A stretch of DNA of 64,000 nucleotides from Escherichia phage dune. A program made the translations under genes and the position numbers. The notes under the pieces were generated by a model. The model worked only from the letters and a program-made list of their open reading frames with translations. It ran no database searches and had not been told where the DNA came from. Below are positions 29,434-53,981 of this stretch, one piece after another (the first letter of the stretch is position 1; each line of letters starts with the position of its first letter). The stretch lies in the sequence record MN850636.1, one strand, 5' to 3'.

Positions 29434-37452
<8,019 letters not shown>

Positions 37453-37453
<1 letters not shown>

Positions 37454-37692
37454 TACATTTTTCCTGCTCTTCTAAGTTCGTTGTAAGCAATTTCCTCTTT
37501 ATACGACCTCTGAATTTCAAGAAATTGTCTCAATGATAATAAATCAGAGAATGTCATAGCAAAGAGTTGGTCAAGTGTTTCTTTACACCCTTCCATACCA
37601 TAAATAGCAAGCACAAATTTCATCTCGTCTGCTTCTTCATAGGTTGCCTCTACAGCAGCATCAGTTAGTGGTGTCTGTAGAGTGTTACCCAT
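37453..37692 (-). CDS. Tail assembly chaperone frameshift extension (T-like part of G/GT)
   Basis: In -1 frame relative to upstream chaperone ORF; reachable by slip at TTTTTTC. Confidence 0.55.
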
Positions 37693-37694
37693 GT

Positions 37695-38093
37695 TTACTG
37701 AGAAGTTAGGCTTTTGAAAATGCTTGCTTCGAAAAAACTTCCGAAGTTTGCCTCCAGCGCAAATGCTAAGTAATCAATAAATTCACCGTAGTTTGCTTGG
37801 AAGTACGTATCAATATTAAGTGGGAAGTCATCAACAGTTGCCCCTTGAAATAACAGGGTTGCCATCTCTTCAAGGTTAATTTCTTCAATTCTGTCAAAAC
37901 AAGCTTCAACAAGTTCTTTAAATGGAACCATTGGAGCTTCTTTCTTACCCTTGTCAGTCAGACTTGATAGCATCTGTGCAAAGGTTGGAACAACAATTTT
38001 ACCCAACTTCATAGACATCTTAATACCATCTCTTGCCCCAAGCAGAACGATATTTACTTTCTTACCATTAATTACTCTAGATTCTGTTTTCAT
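37695..38093 (-). CDS. Tail assembly chaperone (G-like)
   Basis: 132 aa between tube and tape measure; slippery heptamer near 3' end. Confidence 0.6.
   Translation of the reverse strand: MKTESRVINGKKVNIVLLGARDGIKMSMKLGKIVVPTFAQMLSSLTDKGKKEAPMVPFKELVEACFDRIEEINLEEMATLLFQGATVDDFPLNIDTYFQANYGEFIDYLAFALEANFGSFFEASIFKSLTSQ
37736..37742 (-). other. Programmed -1 ribosomal frameshift slippery site T_TTT_TTC
   Basis: Minus-strand AGT TTT TTC in frame of chaperone ORF; -1 shift reads ...RSKHFQKPNFSVNMGNTLQ... into downstream ORF. Confidence 0.6.
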
Positions 38094-38122
38094 TGTGATT
38101 CCTTAATACTTTTAAAAGAAAC

Positions 38123-38153
38123 AAAAAAGGGGAAGACCTTTTAAAGTCTCCCC
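38123..38153 (-). terminator. Rho-independent terminator after tail tube gene
   Basis: GGGGA...TCCCC stem followed by U6 on minus strand. Confidence 0.5.
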
Positions 38154-38166
38154 CTTATAGGATTTA

Positions 38167-38613
38167 TTAAACACTTGACGCTGGAATTGTAGAAGTGTAA
38201 TCTAACTTCTCACAACCAAAAATCCAAGTTTTAGAGTTCTGGTCACGACCAAGTTCAATCTGTGGTAACTCCTGCAACCAAGCGTTAATACCAGTTGCCA
38301 GAACAGAGCCTGATGGGTCGTAGATTACGAAGTTAGAAGAGATATCTTCTTCAAGTTCCATATTGTCTTGTTTAGCTTGAATTGCAGAAAGCATCTGGTT
38401 AGAGAGAGAAGTCTGCATTAACTCAATCTCAATAGTACCTGTCTTGTCTGCATTTCGTGTCAGAGCAACCTGACCACCTGCACCAACAACTGGTGTCACA
38501 AGTGGTGATGTTCTCTGTAGACGCAAGAATGAGTCTGGAGCAAAGCCTTCAATAGCAATGCCGTTCCAGCTACATACAACGTCTTTAGGGGAATATTGCT
38601 GATACATAGCCAT
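38167..38613 (-). CDS. Putative tail tube protein
   Basis: 148 aa directly downstream of sheath candidate and upstream of chaperone pair. Confidence 0.55.
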   Translation of the reverse strand: MAMYQQYSPKDVVCSWNGIAIEGFAPDSFLRLQRTSPLVTPVVGAGGQVALTRNADKTGTIEIELMQTSLSNQMLSAIQAKQDNMELEEDISSNFVIYDPSGSVLATGINAWLQELPQIELGRDQNSKTWIFGCEKLDYTSTIPASSV

Positions 38614-38628
38614 TCCAATTTACCTCTA

Positions 38629-39981
38629 TTATTCGTAAGCCACTGTACCTTTCAAGTCAACATCCAAGATAGCCCCTGCTAAGATACCTGCGAAGGTAAC
38701 GTCTTTCAGGATACGAGCTTTCTTGTCTGCTAAAGCAACTTGAGAGGCTTTAGGAACATTAACTGTGTAAGATGACAGGAAGTTTCTGTTGACTGCTCTT
38801 TGCAGAGAGGTTTCAATGACTTGACGAATACGGGTAATACCAGTATCATCATAAGTAATCTTACCACCCTTCTGGTTAATTAGCAAGTCTCTCAGAGAAG
38901 TTTTCAGGTCTGATTCCAACCAGTCAACACCACGGACGATATCAATCCATTCCCCACCAGAAGTAATCCCTCTACGAACCACTGGAACACCACCATCAAG
39001 GTCAATAAAGTTACAGTGACGTACATCTAAAGCAGACTTCTGAATACTTGTCAGAGGTCTCTGATTAGATGGTTGTAGAGAAGCTGCTACGCCAGTTAGC
39101 TGAGCATTACCCCAAGCAATTGAGCCTGCATCATATGGAGCACCATAAGCAATGTATGCCATCTCTGGATAATCCTCTGCTGCTGCGTGATGCCACAAGC
39201 AAACTGTACGAGTGTACATATTCTTAGCAAGCTGTGCTGGAACATCATTTGCACTGGCTAATTCTGTACCTTGCAGGGCTGTTACATCGGAGTTAGCTGT
39301 AAAGAAGATTTTCTTACGAGCCTGAATCTCAGAAGCCATTGCTAAGACAAACTGTTGAGTTCTGTCTTCTGCTGCAATGAAATACCAGTCAGTAGAGTAA
39401 GCTTCGATAGCTGCCAGAGCAGTTGCTGCTGTATCGGCAGTTGTACTTGCAATATATACAGTCTGTGCTGTGGTTGTTACTTTCACAAAGTCATTATCAC
39501 CAGCTTTGGTAATAATCATTGTGGCAGAGCCATTGCTACCAGTTACATTCACAGAAACCTTATCTTTGATTGTTGGGTCAGCTTCAATCTGTGTTTTAAA
39601 CTGTTGCAACACGTTTTCAGCAGTGTCTGAATCTTGTGCTGTGTACTGGTATGGTTGAGAAATTCCACCACCAACAGCTACAGTAATTGAGTAGTCTGTA
39701 CTTTCGGTAACGGCATCAGGAATTGATACAGTGTACTGCATAGCGCGTCTACCGATATAAAGCTGAGTTACTTTAGGAGTCTGACTCCAAAGTTGTTTAG
39801 CAGCCTTATATGCAGCAGTATTCTCATCGAAATCTTCAGCAACTTCAGTTAAGGAAGTGTAACCACGTACTCTTTCTTCAAAGTTATCTGTTGAAGCTAA
39901 GAATAGTGGCAAACCAAAACCTTCTCTTGTAGTTCCTGCGGTGTTCAATGTAATATCTACATTAACAATTGGATTCCACAT
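38629..39981 (-). CDS. Putative tail sheath protein
   Basis: 450 aa; position before tube gene; contractile-tail gene order. Confidence 0.55.
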   Translation of the reverse strand: MWNPIVNVDITLNTAGTTREGFGLPLFLASTDNFEERVRGYTSLTEVAEDFDENTAAYKAAKQLWSQTPKVTQLYIGRRAMQYTVSIPDAVTESTDYSITVAVGGGISQPYQYTAQDSDTAENVLQQFKTQIEADPTIKDKVSVNVTGSNGSATMIITKAGDNDFVKVTTTAQTVYIASTTADTAATALAAIEAYSTDWYFIAAEDRTQQFVLAMASEIQARKKIFFTANSDVTALQGTELASANDVPAQLAKNMYTRTVCLWHHAAAEDYPEMAYIAYGAPYDAGSIAWGNAQLTGVAASLQPSNQRPLTSIQKSALDVRHCNFIDLDGGVPVVRRGITSGGEWIDIVRGVDWLESDLKTSLRDLLINQKGGKITYDDTGITRIRQVIETSLQRAVNRNFLSSYTVNVPKASQVALADKKARILKDVTFAGILAGAILDVDLKGTVAYE

Positions 39982-40581
39982 TTATTTTACCCCTTTGGAG
40001 TCTACATCTAGATGGATAGTATATTCTGGTGGCTCTTGTCCTTCTTCATAAACCAACTCACCATCAACAATGACACGCTCAATAATACTTCCACGTTCAT
40101 CCTTCAGGACTGAGTTTTTTACAAGAGTTACAACAAGAGGTGCAGAATTTTCGAAATCTGTATTGAGATAAGTATAATCATTTGGGATTGCTCCAGTATC
40201 TAGTACTGTAGCTCCTGTCTCTTCAAGGATTAAATCTCTGACTGAACTCATCTCTAATCGTTGTTTAAGCTCAAGCATAATACTGTGAGCACCTTTACCA
40301 TTCACCGTAATTAATACTGGAATCTGAAAAGCAATTCTGTAGCAAACTACATCATCCTCAACAAACTTATCAAGAACCCAACCATAAGGTGTTGCAGCAT
40401 CTTGACAATATACAGTGATAAATGGCTGGTCAGGTTTTAAACCTTTGTCATTTGAGTTATCAGAAGGGTAAGCTCTAATTACGTTTGGTCTATTATTTTT
40501 ATCACGAGATAATCTGTGACCAATAACATCCACTAAGGTTCTAACTAGACCTTTTTCAAGTTCTGCTGTTTCTAACTGCAT
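39982..40581 (-). CDS. Putative head-tail connector/tail completion protein
   Basis: Synteny between capsid and sheath genes. Confidence 0.4.
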   Translation of the reverse strand: MQLETAELEKGLVRTLVDVIGHRLSRDKNNRPNVIRAYPSDNSNDKGLKPDQPFITVYCQDAATPYGWVLDKFVEDDVVCYRIAFQIPVLITVNGKGAHSIMLELKQRLEMSSVRDLILEETGATVLDTGAIPNDYTYLNTDFENSAPLVVTLVKNSVLKDERGSIIERVIVDGELVYEEGQEPPEYTIHLDVDSKGVK

Positions 40582-49154: not shown

Positions 49155-49230
49155 TGGAGAATCCGAAGGGACTCGAACCCTTATAAACCTGTTTTGCAGA
49201 CAGGCACATATCCATTTCTGTCACGGATTC
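49155..49230 (-). tRNA. tRNA-Cys (anticodon GCA)
   Basis: Hand-folded cloverleaf: 7-bp acceptor, T-arm aaggg-TTCGAGT-ccctt, anticodon loop cuGCAaa, CCA encoded. Confidence 0.75.
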
Positions 49231-49234
49231 AAAT

Positions 49235-49327
49235 TGGAGGAAGATACCAGACTTGAACTGGTACACCGATTTCTCAGCTACTGGCAGTTTAGCAAACTGC
49301 TCCCTTACCTTTTAGGGTTAATCTTCC
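49235..49327 (-). tRNA. tRNA-Ser (anticodon GCT), long variable arm
   Basis: 93 nt, 7-bp acceptor, anticodon loop uuGCUaa. Confidence 0.7.
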
Positions 49328-49328
49328 A

Positions 49329-50063
49329 TTATTTCTGTAATGCGCTCTTCATTTCTGGTGTTGCAATAGTGTCAATCACACCAGTTTTACAAGCATCGTC
49401 AAACCAGTCTGGTAAGATACCTGCTAAGAACCCATTGATATTCGTTTTAAGGTACTCTGCAATAAGGGCAGCTTCTTCTTCAATCATCTGCACAACTTCA
49501 TCTGCATAAGCTGTAATCTTTGAAATACCTTCATTAATCTTACTGACAGCTTGGTTAGCTAAATCAGAAACAGTATCAAGACCCTTATCAATAGCATCTT
49601 GTAAGTCACTTAACACACCATTAACACTATCTAGTGTACTGTTCATCATGTCAATAGCTTTTTGACCATACTCTGTAGCAACACCCATGATACCACTGAA
49701 TGGTGTACAACCAACTTGTTCTCCTGCTGCACCCATAACATTGGAATACCCCTTTGCTACCTGCATACGTGATGAAAACTCATCAATAGATTTTTGACCG
49801 TAGTCTGTCAGAGTTTTAGTAGTTGCTGTAGTGCTTGTAAGGCTTGTTGTAAAGCTGTTTAGAAGGACTGTTGTAAGTCCAGCAGCAACAAGTTTCTCCT
49901 TCATTGTAGGGTCTGTTACAGAACTAATAGAGCTTACAAGTGATGTAGAAGCAGCTACGGTTCCACCGAGAACTGCTGCACCAGTAATAAGCGGGTTAGA
50001 GAACCCTTTACCAGTTTTTAAGAGATTAAAAATCTCCTTACCTTGTTCTGTCATCTCTTTCAT
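49329..50063 (-). CDS. Hypothetical protein (~244 aa) embedded in tRNA array
   Basis: ORF track; ATG 50063 after AAAGGTG RBS avoids overlap with tRNA-Phe. Confidence 0.5.
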   Translation of the reverse strand: MKEMTEQGKEIFNLLKTGKGFSNPLITGAAVLGGTVAASTSLVSSISSVTDPTMKEKLVAAGLTTVLLNSFTTSLTSTTATTKTLTDYGQKSIDEFSSRMQVAKGYSNVMGAAGEQVGCTPFSGIMGVATEYGQKAIDMMNSTLDSVNGVLSDLQDAIDKGLDTVSDLANQAVSKINEGISKITAYADEVVQMIEEEAALIAEYLKTNINGFLAGILPDWFDDACKTGVIDTIATPEMKSALQK

Positions 50064-50079
50064 TAAGCACCTTTGAAAT

Positions 50080-50156
50080 TGGTAGCCCAGTGGGATTTGA
50101 ACCCTCTTCTCATGTTTTTCAGACACGCGCTTTAACCATATAAGCTACTTGGACTA
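50080..50156 (-). tRNA. tRNA-Phe (anticodon GAA)
   Basis: Anticodon loop cuGAAaa; acceptor with one G-U. Confidence 0.6.
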
Positions 50157-50161
50157 TAAAT

Positions 50162-50237
50162 TGGGGTGACCTACGGGAGTCGAACCCGTATAGACCATGT
50201 TCACAGCATGGGTCATTACCATTTATGATAAGGCCAC
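50162..50237 (-). tRNA. tRNA-His (anticodon GTG)
   Basis: Anticodon loop cuGUGaa; perfect anticodon stem. Confidence 0.7.
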
Positions 50238-50267
50238 ATTTAAGGACTCTCGTAAGAACCCTTAGAA

Positions 50268-50344
50268 GTGGCAGCGGCATAAGGATTTGAACCTTAATCG
50301 GACAGCTTCAGAGACTGTTGCATTGCCAGTTATGCTATACCGCT
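50268..50344 (-). tRNA. tRNA-Gln (anticodon CTG)
   Basis: Anticodon loop cuCUGaa. Confidence 0.65.
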
Positions 50345-50349
50345 AAATT

Positions 50350-50429
50350 TGGTACTCCATATCGGATTCGAACCGATACATAACACAGATTTTAAGTCTG
50401 GCCTCTCTGCCAATTGGAGTAATGGAGCA
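50350..50429 (-). tRNA. tRNA with Leu anticodon TAA, short (~7 nt) variable loop
   Basis: Acceptor and T-arm good; anticodon loop cuUAAaa with 4-bp stem; 80 nt. Confidence 0.5.
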
Positions 50430-50430
50430 T

Positions 50431-50506
50431 TGGCGGGGGATGTTGGAATTGAACCAACTTCTTCGATTTCAAAGACCGAGGTTTTAACCTTGTAAACTAA
50501 TCCCCT
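50431..50506 (-). tRNA. tRNA-Gln (anticodon TTG)
   Basis: Anticodon loop cuUUGaa; D-stem guuu/aaac. Confidence 0.7.
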
Positions 50507-50514
50507 TTAAATCT

Positions 50515-51072
50515 TTACTTTCTCAGTGGATGAATAAAGAATGCCAACATAACTCTTTCCCTTGAGAATGCTCTTTCTTCTGGGACAACACTTTTAAGTT
50601 TCCATCCAACATAAATTCTCCAGTAAAACTGTTTACCAAAGACTTTAATTGACGGAATAAAAGCGAATAATCCCCAAGCATTGTTGTTCCACATTAGGAG
50701 ATAACCTGTCTGATTATCTTCAGGGTCAGAACTTACGTTGATATTACCTTTCCACTTAGTAACATCTTTTACATCTCTTCCTAATACATGGTAAGAGAAG
50801 TTATAAGCTTTGTTTCTCCAGAGCCATCCGACTCTCTGCATGTAGACACCCAGCTTACCAATCTTTCTAATCTTAGCCCATCTTTTAACGTGGCCTTCAT
50901 CACCATCAATTGGGTTGTCATAGGTCTCCATCCATCTGAATCCAAAAGGTAGATGTCCTTTCTTCTCACTGTAGAATGGAACTACGAAAGGTGCTAAGAT
51001 GACTGCTAGGGTTGCTGCAAATGGTTCTAGTAAAGCTAAGAAAATCCATGAAGCGTACTTCAAATATCTCAT
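50515..51072 (-). CDS. Hypothetical membrane protein (185 aa) embedded in tRNA array
   Basis: ORF track; N-terminal hydrophobic helix; flanked by tRNAs. Confidence 0.5.
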   Translation of the reverse strand: MRYLKYASWIFLALLEPFAATLAVILAPFVVPFYSEKKGHLPFGFRWMETYDNPIDGDEGHVKRWAKIRKIGKLGVYMQRVGWLWRNKAYNFSYHVLGRDVKDVTKWKGNINVSSDPEDNQTGYLLMWNNNAWGLFAFIPSIKVFGKQFYWRIYVGWKLKSVVPEERAFSRERVMLAFFIHPLRK

Positions 51073-51081
51073 TAAATAGCC

Positions 51082-51159
51082 TCTTTAAATTGGTGTTCCA
51101 AGACGGATTCGAACCGTCACTAATACAAGGTTTGAGCTTGCATCCTCTGCCAATTGGGA
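51082..51159 (-). tRNA. tRNA with Leu anticodon CAA, short variable loop
   Basis: Perfect acceptor, T-arm gacgg-TTCGAAT-ccgtc, anticodon loop cuCAAac, A73; 78 nt. Confidence 0.55.
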
Positions 51160-51161
51160 TA

Positions 51162-51235
51162 CTGGAACATGGTACTCACTAAAGGACTTGAACCTTTTTC
51201 TTCATCTTGTAAGGGTGGTGTTTTACCATATAAAC
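51162..51235 (-). tRNA. tRNA, probably Val (anticodon TAC); weak anticodon stem
   Basis: Acceptor, D- and T-arms fold; loop cuUACaa. Confidence 0.45.
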
Positions 51236-51244
51236 TAAGCGAGT

Positions 51245-51300
51245 GTGAAAGAGGTCTGAAGTTGTGCCGCTAACTCAACTCCGTGGAATTTGTTACGGTC
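51245..51300 (-). repeat. Member of GGTCTTC-motif structured repeat family (CTGAAG...CTTCAG stem)
   Basis: Shares ACGGTCTTCAG 3' motif with 53148-53812 copies. Confidence 0.4.
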
Positions 51301-51339
51301 TTCAGTTGACACCAGCGGTCTTTCACTTGACCTCTGAAT

Positions 51340-51415
51340 TGGTGCTCCCACAAGGATTCGAACCCTGATAAGTTGCTTACAAGGCAACCGTAATAGCCAA
51401 TTATACGATAGGAGC
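51340..51415 (-). tRNA. tRNA-Thr (anticodon TGT)
   Basis: Anticodon loop cuUGUaa, perfect anticodon stem. Confidence 0.7.
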
Positions 51416-51422
51416 ATTAATT

Positions 51423-51497
51423 TGGAGCATCCAGAGGGAATCGAACCCTCAACCTCAGTTTGGAAGACTGTAATTTTCCCGTTTAAACTATGGATGC
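51423..51497 (-). tRNA. tRNA-Gly (anticodon TCC)
   Basis: Anticodon loop cuUCCaa; perfect acceptor and T-arm. Confidence 0.7.
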
Positions 51498-51503
51498 ACT
51501 AAT

Positions 51504-51578
51504 TGGTGGAGTCACTGAGAATTGAACTCAGTTCCCAAGTTTGCAAAACTCGAATTTTAACCATATAAACTATGACCC
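51504..51578 (-). tRNA. tRNA-Ala (anticodon TGC)
   Basis: Anticodon loop uuUGCaa; G3:U70 pair in acceptor stem (alanine identity element). Confidence 0.8.
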
Positions 51579-51584
51579 CATTTT

Positions 51585-51660
51585 TGGTACAGGTGGAGGG
51601 AATTGAACCCATCGTCTTACTGATTAAGAGTCAGCCGCATAACCATTTTGCTACACCTGC
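51585..51660 (-). tRNA. tRNA-Lys (anticodon CTT)
   Basis: Anticodon loop cuCUUaa; paralog of 52809-52884. Confidence 0.6.
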
Positions 51661-51667
51661 ATTAATT

Positions 51668-51745
51668 TGGTAGGAGACAAGGGATTCGAACCCTCAAACA
51701 CCAACTTCTAAGGATGGTAGGTTTACCAATTACCGTCAATCTCCC
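51668..51745 (-). tRNA. tRNA with Leu anticodon TAG, short variable loop
   Basis: Anticodon loop cuUAGaa; acceptor 7 bp incl. 2 G-U; A73. Confidence 0.5.
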
Positions 51746-52001
51746 ATTAAATCTTTTTAGAGAACTTCTAAGAACCTGAGCAACAAGGTTCCACAACAAG
51801 CGACTAATAACCTTAGAAGCCCTCTAAAAAGACCTAAATAGGTCTTTGCATAGTCTTGTTTAATCCGGTGACTAGAACCTTTGGAGAGCTTGATATTATC
51901 TCTTCTCCGTGACACCTACTAGGTGCTTTGACAGTGTACGACAATACACGAGGGATAAACCGACAATGCGAACAAGCATGGACGGAGTAAATCTTATTAG
52001 G

Positions 52002-52089
52002 CGGTAAGTAAAGGAGTCGAACCCTCACCGTATCTCTACAGTGGCAACAGTTTTCAAGACTGTTTGGCTGCCATTAGCCGCTACCTACC
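52002..52089 (-). tRNA. tRNA-Ser (anticodon TGA), long variable arm
   Basis: 88 nt; perfect anticodon stem acagu/acugu, loop cuUGAaa. Confidence 0.7.
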
Positions 52090-52102
52090 CCTAATAAGAC
52101 TT

Positions 52103-52185
52103 TGGCATGGGACGGAGGAGTTGAACCCCTTTGAAACGGTTTTGGAGGCCGTTGCTCATGCCTTAGAGTCTTAACATCGTCCCAT
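52103..52185 (-). tRNA. tRNA-like, possibly Trp (anticodon CCA), enlarged D region
   Basis: Perfect 7-bp acceptor, T-arm, loop cuCCAaa; atypical 83 nt. Confidence 0.45.
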
Positions 52186-52327
52186 ATTATAATTCGAAGC
52201 TTACCCTGTTATCTCAACACTGTCAAGCTTCTTCTCAGATTATTTACATGTTCTGGAAAACATGAGATACAGACCACCTCCCTACAGGAAGACCCGCTAA
52301 GGCCGTCTAAGTAATCTGCTAACTATT

Positions 52328-52403
52328 TGGTACACCCTACAGGATTCGAACCTGTAACTAACGATTTAGAAGACCGTTGCTCTATCCAATTGAACTAAGG
52401 GTG
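52328..52403 (-). tRNA. tRNA-Arg (anticodon TCT)
   Basis: Anticodon loop cuUCUaa; perfect T-arm. Confidence 0.7.
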
Positions 52404-52650
52404 CATTATCTTTAAAGACTCTCTTAGAAAGCCCTTAAAGATGCCCACCTTATTAATCATACCGTGGGCGAGTACGCCAAATTCTTTGATGAGGGATTGG
52501 AAGACCTCACTGGTGTTTAGCCTATCAAGCTACTGCCAGAAAAACATTGTCGTTTGCATTTATTTTAAATTTGCAAAATAGACGCTACGCAACGAAAACT
52601 AAGGTTACTATAAAGTAGTCACATCTCAATGTCAACAACTTTATTGAAAT

Positions 52651-52726
52651 TGGTACTGGTAGGTGGAATCGAACCACCGATGTTCCCTTATCAGGGGAGT
52701 GTTATAACCTTCTTAACTATACCAGC
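52651..52726 (-). tRNA. tRNA-Ile (anticodon GAT)
   Basis: Anticodon loop cuGAUaa. Confidence 0.65.
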
Positions 52727-52727
52727 T

Positions 52728-52804
52728 TGGAGGTTCAGATGGGAATCGAACCCACATTCATAGGGCTTATGAGACCCTTGCATTACCTTATCTGCGACTG
52801 AACC
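52728..52804 (-). tRNA. tRNA-Met (anticodon CAT)
   Basis: Anticodon loop cuCAUaa; perfect acceptor. Confidence 0.65.
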
Positions 52805-52808
52805 ATAT

Positions 52809-52884
52809 TGGTAGAAGTGGAGGGATTCGAACCCATCGCCTGTCAGATTAAAAGTCTGCCGCATCACCATTCTGCTACACTTCC
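52809..52884 (-). tRNA. tRNA-Lys (anticodon TTT)
   Basis: Anticodon loop cuUUUaa. Confidence 0.6.
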
Positions 52885-52892
52885 ATTAAATT

Positions 52893-53020
52893 ATCTTTGT
52901 AGATAAGCTACCCAGACTTGCTTAAGGTCTGTAGCGATGTGCCTTTTTTGGGTTTAAATCTAGAATTTACCCATTCACCCTTTGTGGTCGCATACTCACA
53001 AGTAAGCTTAATAACTTATC
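52893..53020. repeat. Structured tRNA-free element bounded by perfect 13-bp inverted repeat CTTTGTAGATAAG / CTTATCTACAAAG
   Basis: Inverted repeat at 52895-52907 and 53006-53018 enclosing CAGAC/GTCTG hairpin. Confidence 0.5.
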
Positions 53021-53085
53021 TACAAAGGTAATTACCAGACCGTTGTTTATCATCTTAAGTGCTACCATTACACCAACTCGACATC

Positions 53086-53160
53086 TGCCGAGTGAAGGAA
53101 TCGAACCTTCGCCTTTTCTTTACCAGAGAAATAGATTGTTTAAGTTTTGCTGTAAACGGC
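53086..53160 (-). pseudogene. Degenerate tRNA-like gene (Thr-like, anticodon GGT) with weak acceptor stem
   Basis: Perfect T-arm (gaagg-TTCGATT-ccttc) and anticodon arm (uuucu-cuGGUaa-agaaa) but only 5/7 acceptor pairs and poor D-arm. Confidence 0.4.
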
Positions 53161-53169
53161 CTTCTGTAA

Positions 53170-53250
53170 ATTTGTTGAGCCAGACCAAGTTTTAAATTTT
53201 CAAAATTAAATTGGCTTGAAAATATCATACGTTCTTGCTGAATTTGGTCT
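53170..53250 (-). ncRNA. Structured repeat element copy 1 (AGACCAA...TTGGTCT stem; conserved TTGCTGAAtttGGTCTTCTG)
   Basis: 7-bp terminal stem; shared 30-nt motif with copies at 53584 and 53738. Confidence 0.45.
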
Positions 53251-53321
53251 TCTGCTCCTTTAAAGAATACTCGTAAGAACTCTTTAAGGGAGGGGCTAAA
53301 TAGCCCTCTCAAAATTGGCGG

Positions 53322-53398
53322 CTACGATGAGACTTGAACTCACATCATCTCCCGTGACAGGGGAGTATTTTCTCCAGTTAAACTACATAGCCTTTATT
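53322..53398 (-). tRNA. tRNA-Asp (anticodon GTC)
   Basis: Perfect anticodon stem cuccc/gggag, loop cuGUCac. Confidence 0.7.
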
Positions 53399-53403
53399 GG
53401 TGT

Positions 53404-53491
53404 GCCGTGTAGGAGTCGAACCTACCGAGTCTCAATGACAAGGGATTTACAGTCCCCACCGCTACCATCTACGGGATAACGACACATTTAA
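53404..53491 (-). tRNA. tRNA-Tyr (anticodon GTA), long variable arm
   Basis: 88 nt; loop cuGUAaa; perfect T-arm. Confidence 0.65.
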
Positions 53492-53499
53492 TTTGGCGG

Positions 53500-53576
53500 T
53501 TAGTCAGGGATTCGAACCCTGTGCCATTCGCTTAACAGGCGACCGCACATACCTTATGTGCTTCCTAACCTTAATA
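53500..53576 (-). tRNA. tRNA-Asn (anticodon GTT)
   Basis: Anticodon loop cuGUUaa; perfect T-arm caggg/ccctg. Confidence 0.65.
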
Positions 53577-53583
53577 CATTGCC

Positions 53584-53646
53584 AGACCGTGTTTTTTCTT
53601 TTATCCGCAAAAAAGTATTTTGTTGCTGAATACGGTCTTCTGCAAA
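53584..53646 (-). ncRNA. Structured repeat element copy 2 (AGACCGT...ACGGTCT stem)
   Basis: Stem carries compensatory AA/TT -> GT/AC change relative to copies 1 and 3. Confidence 0.45.
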
Positions 53647-53648
53647 AT

Positions 53649-53725
53649 TGGAGGCGGGTGCAGGAGTCGAACCTGCCGATACCATGCTAATGAGACATGT
53701 GAGACGCCCTTTCTCTATACCCGCA
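53649..53725 (-). tRNA. tRNA with anticodon CAT (second Met-type; initiator or Ile2 possible)
   Basis: Loop cuCAUua; U1:C72 mismatch at top of acceptor stem. Confidence 0.55.
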
Positions 53726-53737
53726 ATTCTTAATGAC

Positions 53738-53812
53738 CAGACCAAATCTCTTCTTTGTCCGATTTACCTTCAGATGAATAAGATTAAGTTTGCTGTAATT
53801 GGTCTTCTGTCA
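53738..53812 (-). ncRNA. Structured repeat element copy 3 (AGACCAA...TTGGTCT stem)
   Basis: 7-bp terminal stem, conserved TTGCTGTAATTGGTCTTCTG. Confidence 0.45.
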
Positions 53813-53819
53813 AAACTGG

Positions 53820-53897
53820 CGTTCCAGAAGGGATTTGAACCCTCAGATATCCACTTTGAAAGAGTGGTGACTATACCATTTTGTCTACTGGAACATT
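53820..53897 (-). tRNA. tRNA-Glu (anticodon TTC)
   Basis: Perfect acceptor and anticodon stem ccacu/agugg, loop cuUUCaa. Confidence 0.7.
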
Positions 53898-53904
53898 AAT
53901 TTGG

Positions 53905-53981
53905 TCTCTGTTGGAGGACTTGAACCTCCGGCCTTACCGCCCCAAACGGAACGCTCTACCAAGCTGAGCTAAACAGAGATA
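53905..53981 (-). tRNA. tRNA-Pro (anticodon TGG)
   Basis: Perfect acceptor, canonical D-arm GCUCAGCUUGGUAGAGC, loop uuUGGgg. Confidence 0.75.

What the first reader, a model, noticed from the sequence alone, without database searches (positions are those of the whole stretch)
37453..38093. Programmed -1 frameshift in the tail assembly chaperone pair
The minus-strand slippery heptamer T_TTT_TTC (37736-37742) lies ~40 nt before the stop of the 132-aa chaperone ORF. A -1 shift there reads through into the downstream 79-aa ORF, giving a G/GT-type fusion, as is conserved in long-tailed phages.
Basis: partly seen in the sequence, partly recalled or inferred. Interest (0 to 1): 0.45.

Follow-up and report, generated by a model that had tools for sequence, protein, structure and literature searches.

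The report
Known tail-chaperone frameshift, Felix O1-like phage
This is the standard programmed -1 frameshift that lets a Felix O1-type phage make a short and a long tail-assembly chaperone from one start codon; it looks real and is deeply conserved, but it is already annotated in close relatives, so it is ordinary.

Summary
The window is a Felix O1-like myovirus, 98.5% identical to Escherichia phage warpig. On the minus strand, a 132-aa tail assembly chaperone ORF (37695-38093, Pfam Phage_TAC_15) and a 79-aa ORF (37453-37692) lie between the tail tube gene and the tape measure gene. A -1 shift there reads without a stop into the 79-aa ORF and gives a 213-aa fusion. The motif NNT-TTT-TTC sits at the same protein position in the 16 lineage representatives I compared (one has T7), spanning 26-100% identity and 37-64% GC. 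In many relatives the downstream frame has no usable start codon. The same frameshift is already annotated for Salmonella phage Mushroom and Citrobacter phages Moogle and Michonne; my predicted Mushroom and Moogle fusions match the deposited proteins exactly. It is also mentioned in two genome announcements. No downstream stem-loop is predicted here or in other Ounavirinae, although GC-rich distant relatives have strong hairpins 4-5 nt downstream. No experimental evidence of the fusion protein turned up.

The parts
37695..38093 (-). Tail assembly chaperone ORF, 132 aa (the short 'G-like' product, made by standard decoding).
   Evidence: ORF list. Pfam PF21822 Phage_TAC_15, E 1.7e-19, 71 bits against a cut-off of 22. 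PHROG 1613 tail assembly chaperone, 2.9e-48. An AAGGA Shine-Dalgarno-like motif lies 6 nt before the ATG.
37731..37737 (-). Slippery heptamer T_TTT_TTC, zero frame (AG)T TTT TTC = S F F; proposed site of the -1 shift.
   Evidence: NNT TTT TTC is present in 15 of 16 lineage representatives (one has T7) and T6Y in every locus checked individually.
37453..37731 (-). -1 frame extension (the 'T-like' part), 92 codons plus stop, starting by re-reading C37731. It contains the listed 79-aa ORF 37453-37692.
   Evidence: Translation. PHROG 4963 tail assembly chaperone, 2.8e-55. The extension aligns across relatives, many of which have no ATG near its start. No Shine-Dalgarno-like motif precedes ATG 37692.
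37453..38093 (-). Whole frameshifted gene: predicted 213-aa fusion chaperone (junction ...ANFGSFF|RSKHFQ...).
   Evidence: It is 2 residues different from the deposited Mushroom fusion protein YP_009600435.1, which my prediction from the Mushroom DNA reproduces exactly.
37708..37748 (-). A 41-nt island around and 23 nt downstream of the heptamer. It is the only DNA-level match to Kolesnikvirus phages (92.7% identity), whose chaperone is about 40% identical in protein. It lies within the overlap of the two reading frames (37695-37737). Its role is unproven.
   Evidence: blastn hits H83-H90 match only query 363-403. Alignment A3. No structure is predicted in it.
37751..37755 (-). GGAGG inside the chaperone ORF, 13 nt upstream of the heptamer. 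A candidate Shine-Dalgarno-like stimulator with dnaX-type geometry; weakly supported.
   Evidence: Sequence. GAGG is present at this position in 11 of 16 lineage representatives but replaced by GAA codons in the others. GAG is 36% of Glu codons in the window, so its use here is not unusual.
35225..37453 (-). Tape measure protein gene, 742 aa. Its ATG overlaps the stop of the -1 frame (ATGTAATG).
   Evidence: Pfam TMP_3, 2.2e-17. PHROG 4036, E = 0. Start context.
38167..38613 (-). Tail tube gene, 148 aa, immediately upstream of the chaperone.
   Evidence: Pfam KPP10_Orf10. PHROG 280. Annotated 'tail tube protein' in Erwinia phage Harbringer.
38629..39981 (-). Tail sheath gene, 450 aa. It shows that this is a contractile-tail phage.
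   Evidence: PHROG 205 tail sheath, 6e-123. Annotated tail sheath in the Felix O1 RefSeq record.

Best explanation
This is a programmed -1 ribosomal frameshift in the tail assembly chaperone gene of a Felix O1-like myovirus.

Proposed mechanism:
- Most ribosomes that start at ATG 38093 stop at TAA 37697-37695 and make the 132-aa chaperone.
- A minority, with tRNA-Phe on UUU in the P site and on UUC in the A site, slip back one base on U_UUU_UUC (37737-37731).
- These ribosomes then read CGA AGC AAG... in the -1 frame and stop at 37453, making a 213-aa fusion.
- By analogy with lambda G/GT and P2 E/E+E', the shared N-terminal domain would bind the tape measure protein, and the extension would recruit tube subunits so the tail polymerises around the tape measure. 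Neither product would remain in the virion.

Shown here: the sequence anatomy, the homology of the upstream ORF, the deep conservation of the slip site, and the lack of independent start signals for the downstream frame. Inferred: that the shift occurs, its efficiency, that it is ribosomal, and the role of each product.

In this lineage no downstream RNA structure is predicted. The shift may therefore run at low efficiency on the heptamer alone, or with a stimulator that has not been identified.
For: - Gene order is sheath, tube, chaperone, -1 ORF, tape measure.
- The heptamer is in phase and the -1 frame is open to the stop that overlaps the tape measure ATG.
- All 15 GenBank loci, from six genera or groups, have an in-phase T6Y heptamer whose -1 extension of 92-123 aa ends at or just before the tape measure start where one is annotated. 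The exception is phage CL1, where an extra T already fuses the two ORFs.
- The same holds in 20 of the 21 IMG/VR loci checked individually; the other is cut by the end of its contig. The octamer TTTTTTCG occurs at the matching position in 59 of 61 loci; the other two have T7 or T6C followed by A.
- Across 16 lineage representatives with 37-64% GC, the codon triplet is always NNT TTT TTC (one case TTT TTT). The preceding codon is AGT, TGT, TCT or GAT, so it always ends in T even when the amino acid changes. Codon usage gives 0.03-0.10 for this triplet per lineage, given x-F-F.
- The -1 extension is conserved as protein, but has no ATG at all in 5 of the 16 representatives (Yersinia phage P778 and IMG/VR representatives 52, 55, 56, 57) and none before codon 57 in Kolesnikvirus.
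- ORF2 is the only gene of the block without a Shine-Dalgarno-like motif.
- The GC-rich relatives IMGVR52, 55, 56 and 57 have hairpins of -18 to -30 kcal/mol starting 4-5 nt after the heptamer. This is the classic geometry of a ribosomal frameshift stimulator.
- U_UUU_UUC is a measured -1 shifter in E. coli: 0.12% alone, 0.89% with the IS911 stimulators, 7.6% with the IS3 pseudoknot (PMC4066793 supplement).
- Joined CDSs for this event are deposited for phages Mushroom and Moogle, and a 212-aa fusion-length chaperone for Michonne. My predicted Mushroom and Moogle fusions match the deposited proteins exactly.
- The frameshift is stated in the Moogle and Mijalis genome announcements (PMC4319497, PMC5543628).
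Against: - I found no experimental evidence of the fusion protein for any Ounavirinae phage.
- No downstream stimulatory structure is predicted in the window: -3.2 kcal/mol for nt +4 to +53, and 90% of windows in the locus are at least as stable. The RNAalifold consensus for Ounavirinae is -1.96 kcal/mol.
- The heptamer alone gives only about 0.12% in a reporter. That is roughly 30 times below the few percent reported for lambda (from memory).
- An ATG lies 2 nt after the ORF1 stop in Felixounavirus, so some independent or coupled translation of the 79-aa ORF cannot be excluded.
- Most GenBank records, including the Felix O1 RefSeq record, annotate two separate CDSs.
Confidence: 0.88

Rival explanations
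1. The mechanism is transcriptional slippage rather than ribosomal slippage. RNA polymerase occasionally adds one extra U on the U6 run. The resulting U7 mRNA is read in frame and gives exactly the same 213-aa protein (...SFF RSK...).
For: - A one-base insertion in the run fuses the ORFs in frame, as the deposited CL1 sequence with T7 shows.
- The terminator scan flags a weak hairpin (37757-37741, 6 pairs of which 2 are G-U) just 5' of the U run. This geometry recalls hairpin-stimulated slippage (Penno et al. 2015, from memory).
- The protein product cannot distinguish the two mechanisms.
Against: - The run is exactly six T in 15 of 16 lineage representatives rather than drifting longer. Efficient slippage by E. 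coli RNA polymerase generally needs runs of about 8-9 or more (established knowledge, from memory).
- The upstream hairpin is not more stable than shuffles (z from -1.9 to +0.9) and is not conserved in shape across 16 lineages.
- GC-rich relatives place strong hairpins downstream of the run, which helps ribosomal but not transcriptional slippage.
Confidence: 0.05
2. There is no recoding. The 79-aa ORF is translated separately from its own ATG at 37692, by re-initiation after the ORF1 stop 2 nt upstream. The T6C run merely encodes a conserved Phe-Phe.
For: - An ATG follows the stop closely (TAAACATG) in Felixounavirus, and an ATG is also nearby in Suspvirus and Mooglevirus.
- Most database records annotate two separate genes.
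Against: - No Shine-Dalgarno-like motif precedes this ATG, unlike every neighbouring gene.
- In Kolesnikvirus, Yersinia phage P778, the Hafnia phage and the GC-rich relatives, the conserved -1 frame has no ATG near its beginning, or none at all, yet stays open and conserved for 83-123 codons.
- The synonymous positions of NNT TTT TTC are invariant even at 57-64% GC, where TTC TTC and C/G-ending codons would be expected.
Confidence: 0.05
3. The heptamer is a chance occurrence in an AT-rich genome, next to two unrelated small ORFs.
For: The window region is about 37-41% GC, so T runs are not rare a priori.
Against: - T6C is in fact depleted in the window: 8 observed against 26.7 expected.
- About 0.06 in-phase heptamers of any X_XXW_WWN type are expected in the 27-codon overlap, and this is the only in-phase T_TTT_TTC in about 17,300 codons.
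- The site is conserved across about 12 deep lineages.
Confidence: 0.02

Closest known systems
The annotated tape measure chaperone frameshift of Felix O1-like phages: Salmonella phage Mushroom (YP_009600435.1), Citrobacter phages Moogle (YP_009145710.1), Michonne and Mijalis
   Same: It is the same gene, the same heptamer and the same junction. The fusions I predicted from the Mushroom and Moogle DNA at T_TTT_TTC are letter-for-letter the deposited proteins. The window's own fusion differs from Mushroom's at 2 of 213 residues. The frameshift is stated in PMC4319497 and PMC5543628.
   Different: Nothing of substance. Most sister records, including the Felix O1 RefSeq record and warpig, still list two separate CDSs. 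None of the papers I read gives experimental proof.
Phage P2 E / E+E' (-1 frameshift at TTTTTTG in the FETUD tail operon; Christie et al. 2002, as summarised in PMC3091744)
   Same: It is a contractile-tail phage with a T6N slippery heptamer near the end of a small chaperone gene, located between the tail tube and tape measure genes. No downstream hairpin is reported. This is the nearest mechanistic analogue.
   Different: The last base is G rather than C. The products are 91 and 142 aa, against 132 and 213 aa here. No Pfam P2 gpE family appears among the hits of either ORF at E <= 0.1, so no sequence membership is claimed.
Phage lambda G / GT (-1 frameshift at G_GGA_AAG; Levin et al. 1993; Xu, Hendrix and Duda 2004)
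   Same: It has the same genomic position, the same two-product logic and the same proposed function, as summarised in PMC5009743.
   Different: It is a siphovirus with a different heptamer (tRNA-Gly/Lys rather than Phe/Phe) and a different chaperone sequence family.
E. coli dnaX (-1 frameshift with an upstream Shine-Dalgarno-like stimulator)
   Same: A GGAGG lies 13 nt upstream of the heptamer, within the 10-14 nt spacing that stimulates dnaX frameshifting (spacing from memory).
   Different: The motif is not conserved in 5 of 16 lineages and coincides with a conserved Leu-Glu-Ala peptide. There is no downstream hairpin of the dnaX type.

Membership tests
G/GT-type tail assembly chaperone with programmed -1 frameshift (Xu, Hendrix and Duda 2004) | Two overlapping ORFs located between the major tail (tube) gene and the tape measure gene. 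| tested here: met
   Tube 38167-38613, ORF1 37695-38093, ORF2 37453-37692, tape measure 35225-37453, all on the minus strand.
G/GT-type tail assembly chaperone with programmed -1 frameshift (Xu, Hendrix and Duda 2004) | [quoted passage not shown] | tested here: met
   T_TTT_TTC at 37737-37731 ends 33 nt before the stop. The -1 frame is open for 92 codons to 37453.
G/GT-type tail assembly chaperone with programmed -1 frameshift (Xu, Hendrix and Duda 2004) | The slip site and the two-frame arrangement are conserved among diverged relatives. | tested here: met
   T6Y is in phase in every locus checked individually. NNT TTT TTC is found in 15 of 16 lineage representatives down to 26% identity and up to 64% GC.
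G/GT-type tail assembly chaperone with programmed -1 frameshift (Xu, Hendrix and Duda 2004) | The downstream frame lacks its own translation start signals. | tested here: met
   There is no Shine-Dalgarno-like motif before ATG 37692. Many relatives have no ATG near the start of the frame. Caveat: in this genus an ATG does lie 2 nt after the ORF1 stop.
G/GT-type tail assembly chaperone with programmed -1 frameshift (Xu, Hendrix and Duda 2004) | Both the short and the fused protein are made in a fixed ratio, and both are needed for tail assembly. | not testable with these tools
   This needs protein detection and phage genetics. No such data turned up in the papers searched.
G/GT-type tail assembly chaperone with programmed -1 frameshift (Xu, Hendrix and Duda 2004) | A downstream stimulatory RNA structure (frequent in frameshift sites generally, but not required in this family). 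| tested here: not met
   No stable or conserved structure is found in the window or in Ounavirinae. Structures are present in GC-rich relatives. P2 also lacks one.
Pfam PF21822 Phage_TAC_15 | The score against the family profile is above the curated gathering threshold. | tested here: met
   71 bits against a cut-off of 22, E 1.7e-19, covering residues 9-124 of 132. The fusion protein scores 68.3 bits.
P2 gpE / gpE+E' family | Sequence homology to P2 gpE. | tested here: not met
   No P2 gpE family appears among the Pfam hits at E <= 0.1 (ORF1, ORF2) or at E <= 5 (the fusion and the T parts). Only the mechanism and gene position are similar.
Programmed transcriptional slippage sites | A homopolymer run long enough for efficient RNA polymerase slippage (about 8-9 or more in E. 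coli, from memory), or a conserved upstream hairpin stimulator. | tested here: not met
   The run is six T in 15 of 16 lineage representatives. The upstream fold is not better than shuffles and is not conserved.

The most novel reading that the evidence does not exclude
Felix O1-type phages keep a heptamer that shifts at only about 0.1% on its own in E. coli reporters, and no downstream structure is predicted. Yet a 41-nt island around the site, including 23 nt downstream, is 92.7% identical between genera whose chaperones are only about 40% identical. That island, or the highly conserved nascent peptide FALEANFxSFF, or the phage's own tRNA-Phe(GAA), could be a non-canonical, structure-free stimulator of -1 frameshifting.
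Probability: 0.12. Interest if true: 0.4.

Novelty: already known. Interest (0 to 1): 0.1.

Why it matters
The practical value is for annotation. Most Felixounavirus records, including the Felix O1 reference genome, list two separate chaperone genes. The comparative evidence here indicates one frameshifted gene, as already annotated for Mushroom, Moogle and Michonne.

Biologically it adds nothing beyond the established rule that long-tailed phages make a G/GT chaperone pair by a -1 shift. One open point remains. This lineage, like P2, keeps a weak T6-type heptamer without a predicted downstream structure, so it is unclear how it reaches a useful frameshift level.

Tried and rejected
- **Downstream stem-loop or pseudoknot.** Folding 40-90 nt after the heptamer gave energies no better than shuffles (z from +1.2 to -1.1). 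The RNAalifold consensus over 8 Ounavirinae was -1.96 kcal/mol.
- **Hairpin at about +48 nt.** A hairpin (CUCUACAG...CUGUAGAG, roughly 37682-37648) exists in the window. By eye it shows one compensatory change between Moogle and SUSP1. It is too far downstream to act on a ribosome at the slip site, and it did not appear in the alignment consensus fold. I dropped it as a stimulator.
- **Upstream hairpin flagged by the terminator scan.** It is not more stable than shuffles and has a different shape in each lineage. Rejected as a conserved element.
- **Upstream GGAGG as a stimulator.** It is not conserved, and it is explained by the Leu-Glu-Ala codons. Kept only as a weak candidate.
- **Family assignment of the T part.** Pfam gave no hit for the T part from five lineages. 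A PDB sequence search of the fusion gave nothing meaningful (best E 0.61).
- **Searches that failed.** The first related-loci run, with a 9-sequence alignment, failed for lack of a conserved stretch; it worked with 6 sequences. The P2 frameshift paper PMC135442 is not held.
- **Not attempted.** I did not run structure prediction or the large protein searches, because the answer did not depend on them.

Full report
**What the window is.** Megablast of 35200-39990 finds 297 phage records. The best is Escherichia phage warpig at 98.5% identity over the whole query, and Salmonella phage Felix O1 matches at 97.6%. The window is therefore a member of the genus Felixounavirus (Ounavirinae), a contractile-tail phage.

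**Gene layout.** On the minus strand the genes run in this order:

| Gene | Coordinates | Evidence |
|---|---|---|
| Tail sheath | 38629-39981 | PHROG 205 |
| Tail tube | 38167-38613 | PHROG 280 |
| 132-aa ORF | 37695-38093 | Pfam PF21822 Phage_TAC_15 (E 1.7e-19, 71 bits vs cut-off 22); PHROG 1613 'tail assembly chaperone' |
| 79-aa ORF | 37453-37692 | No Pfam hit; PHROG 4963 'tail assembly chaperone' |
| Tape measure | 35225-37453 | Pfam TMP_3; PHROG 4036 |

**Checking the observation.**
- The heptamer TTTTTTC is real but lies at 37737-37731 on the minus strand, not 37736-37742.
- Its phase is right for tandem slippage: the zero-frame codons are AGT TTT TTC (Ser-Phe-Phe).
- Re-reading C37731 in the -1 frame gives CGA AGC AAG CAT TTT CAA AAG CCT AAC TTC TCA GTA AAC ATG. 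This runs without a stop into the 79-aa ORF and ends at 37453.
- The product is a 213-aa protein with the junction ...ANFGSFF|RSKHFQKPNFSVNMGNT....
- The stop of this frame overlaps the tape measure start (ATGTAATG).

**Is it chance?**
- TTTTTTC is depleted in the window: 8 sites on both strands against 26.7 +/- 4.9 in dinucleotide-preserving shuffles.
- In a crude set of 65 long ORFs (17,305 codons) there are 40 in-phase X_XXW_WWN heptamers. That gives about 0.06 expected in the 27 codons where the -1 frame overlaps ORF1.
- This is the only in-phase T_TTT_TTC in the set.

I fetched 15 annotated GenBank loci and 46 IMG/VR loci. The GenBank loci cover:
- Felixounavirus, Suspvirus, Mooglevirus and Kolesnikvirus;
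- Hafnia and Yersinia phages;
- an Alteromonas myovirus;
- the Vequintavirinae phages phiTE and FV3.

The results are as follows.
- Every locus checked individually has T6 followed by C (T in the Alteromonas phage) in the same phase and at the same position of the protein alignment. That covers all 15 GenBank loci and 21 IMG/VR loci.
- The -1 extension is 83-123 codons long and ends at or a few bases before the tape measure start where one is annotated. There are two exceptions: one IMG/VR locus is cut by the end of its contig, and in phage CL1 an extra T already fuses the ORFs.
- The octamer TTTTTTCG is found at the matching position in 59 of the 61 loci.
- In 16 lineage representatives with 37-64% GC, the three codons are NNT TTT TTC in 15 and NNT TTT TTT in the Alteromonas phage. 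The neighbouring codons vary freely at synonymous sites.
- The preceding codon is AGT, TGT, TCT or GAT. It ends in T even when the amino acid changes, and even in genomes where only 13-21% of codons end in T.
- Given x-Phe-Phe, codon usage predicts this triplet with probability 0.03-0.10 per lineage.
- F120 and F121 are among only eight invariant columns of the chaperone alignment.

**The downstream frame cannot generally be translated on its own.**
- The -1 extension aligns as a conserved protein across lineages.
- It has no ATG at all in Yersinia phage P778 or in four of the five GC-rich IMG/VR representatives.
- It has no ATG before codon 57 in Kolesnikvirus, or before codons 60-76 in the Alteromonas phage, phiTE and FV3.
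- In the window an ATG lies 2 nt after the ORF1 stop. It is the only start in this gene block without a Shine-Dalgarno-like motif; sheath, tube, chaperone, tape measure and the next gene all have one.

**Already annotated.**
- Salmonella phage Mushroom (a Felixounavirus) and Citrobacter phage Moogle carry a two-piece joined CDS over exactly this region.
- The fusions I predicted from their DNA by a -1 shift at T_TTT_TTC are identical to the deposited proteins YP_009600435.1 and YP_009145710.1. Michonne has a deposited 212-aa chaperone as well.
[quoted passage not shown] The Mijalis announcement says the same and cites Xu, Hendrix and Duda 2004 (PMC5543628).
- Most other records, including the Felix O1 RefSeq record and warpig, show two separate CDSs.
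- The record of Escherichia phage CL1 has seven T instead of six and a single 642-nt CDS. Its product has the same junction and -1 extension as the predicted fusion.

**Mechanism and stimulators.**
- U_UUU_UUC is a measured -1 shifter in E. coli: 0.121% alone, 0.89% with the IS911 stimulators and 7.6% with the IS3 pseudoknot (supplement of PMC4066793). All-pyrimidine X and Z positions belong to the shift-prone class.
The 40-90 nt after the heptamer fold no better than shuffles. The consensus fold of eight Ounavirinae is -1.96 kcal/mol. The +4 to +53 segment of the window folds at -3.2 kcal/mol, and 90% of windows in the locus are at least as stable.
- The GC-rich distant relatives IMGVR52, 55, 56 and 57 do have hairpins of -18 to -30 kcal/mol starting 4-5 nt after the heptamer. 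IMGVR52, 55 and 56 are among the most stable 1-4% of windows in their loci, and IMGVR57 is within the top 10%. This is the classic arrangement for ribosomal frameshifting and argues that the family mechanism is ribosomal.
- P2, the best-studied myovirus case, uses TTTTTTG and also lacks a downstream hairpin (PMC3091744).
- An upstream hairpin flagged by the terminator scan (37757-37741) is neither more stable than shuffles nor conserved.
- A GGAGG lies 13 nt upstream (37755-37751). It is present as GAGG in 11 of 16 lineage representatives, but it coincides with a conserved Leu-Glu-Ala. GAG is an ordinary Glu codon here, 36% of the total.

**One unexplained detail.** Against Kolesnikvirus phages, whose chaperone is about 40% identical, the only DNA-level match is window 37748-37708 at 92.7% identity. 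That is the heptamer plus 23 nt downstream. This stretch lies inside the overlap of the two reading frames (heptamer to the ORF1 stop), and double coding may be enough to explain it. I could not show an RNA-level role.

**Rival explanations.**
- *Transcriptional slippage.* It would give an identical protein, but it is disfavoured by the fixed run length of six, the lack of a conserved upstream hairpin, and the downstream hairpins in GC-rich relatives.
- *Separate translation of the 79-aa ORF.* It is disfavoured by the missing start signals and by the relatives that have no ATG.
- *Chance.* It is excluded by the conservation.

**Verdict.**
- The feature is already known and annotated in close relatives. 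I found no experimental demonstration.
Such chaperones are not virion components in lambda (established knowledge), and the Bas63 Felixounavirus virion structure paper does not discuss a tail chaperone.
- Interest is low.

Noticed in passing
window 38127-38156 (minus strand), followed by a T tract down to about 38117: There is a strong intrinsic-terminator-like hairpin (13 pairs, 6 G-C, then TTTTGTTTCT) between the tail tube gene and the chaperone gene. It would lower transcription of the chaperone and tape measure genes relative to sheath and tube. Some relatives (KhF1, KhF2, Barry, Tribble) annotate a terminator within the matched sheath-to-tape-measure region.
   Followed up: partly
L003 (Escherichia phage CL1, OK040806.1) 674-680: The run has seven T instead of six, so the chaperone and the downstream ORF form one in-frame 642-nt CDS, annotated 'tape measure chaperone'. 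Its product has the same junction and -1 extension as the predicted -1 fusion. This is probably a homopolymer sequencing error. If real, the phage would make mainly the long form.
   Followed up: partly
window 37160-37166 (minus strand), inside the tape measure gene: There is an in-phase A_AAA_AAG, the most shift-prone heptamer in E. coli. The -1 frame stops after 5 codons (DCKRY*), so a shift would only truncate the tape measure protein. It is probably incidental.
   Followed up: partly
window 49155-53978 (minus strand): There is a cluster of 25 tRNA genes, including tRNA-Phe(GAA) at 50080-50155. This is the tRNA species that would occupy both ribosomal sites on the U_UUU_UUC heptamer. I did not examine whether the phage copy affects the shift.
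   Followed up: no
window 37708-37748 (minus strand); L004 901-941: This 41-nt island around the slip site is 92.7% identical to Kolesnikvirus phages, in which the rest of the gene has diverged beyond blastn detection. Double coding may explain it, and no structure is predicted.
   Followed up: partly
window about 37648-37682 (minus strand): A hairpin CUCUACAG...CUGUAGAG lies about 48 nt after the heptamer, inside the start of the -1 ORF. By eye, the inner stem CCCCG/CGGGG in Moogle becomes CCCCA/TGGGG in SUSP1. It is not recovered in the consensus fold.
   Followed up: partly
database records MG065664.1 (Campylobacter phage A132) and WP_252560994.1 (Staphylococcus hyicus): Sequences 98-100% identical to this Felix O1-type chaperone are filed under hosts that are implausible for this phage group. 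This suggests contamination or mislabelling in those records.
   Followed up: no
L052, L055, L056, L057 (IMG/VR contigs), 4-5 nt after their heptamers: Distant relatives with 57-63% GC carry strong hairpins (-18 to -30 kcal/mol) at canonical spacing after the same T_TTT_TTC. The same slip site therefore appears with and without a structured stimulator in different lineages.
   Followed up: partly
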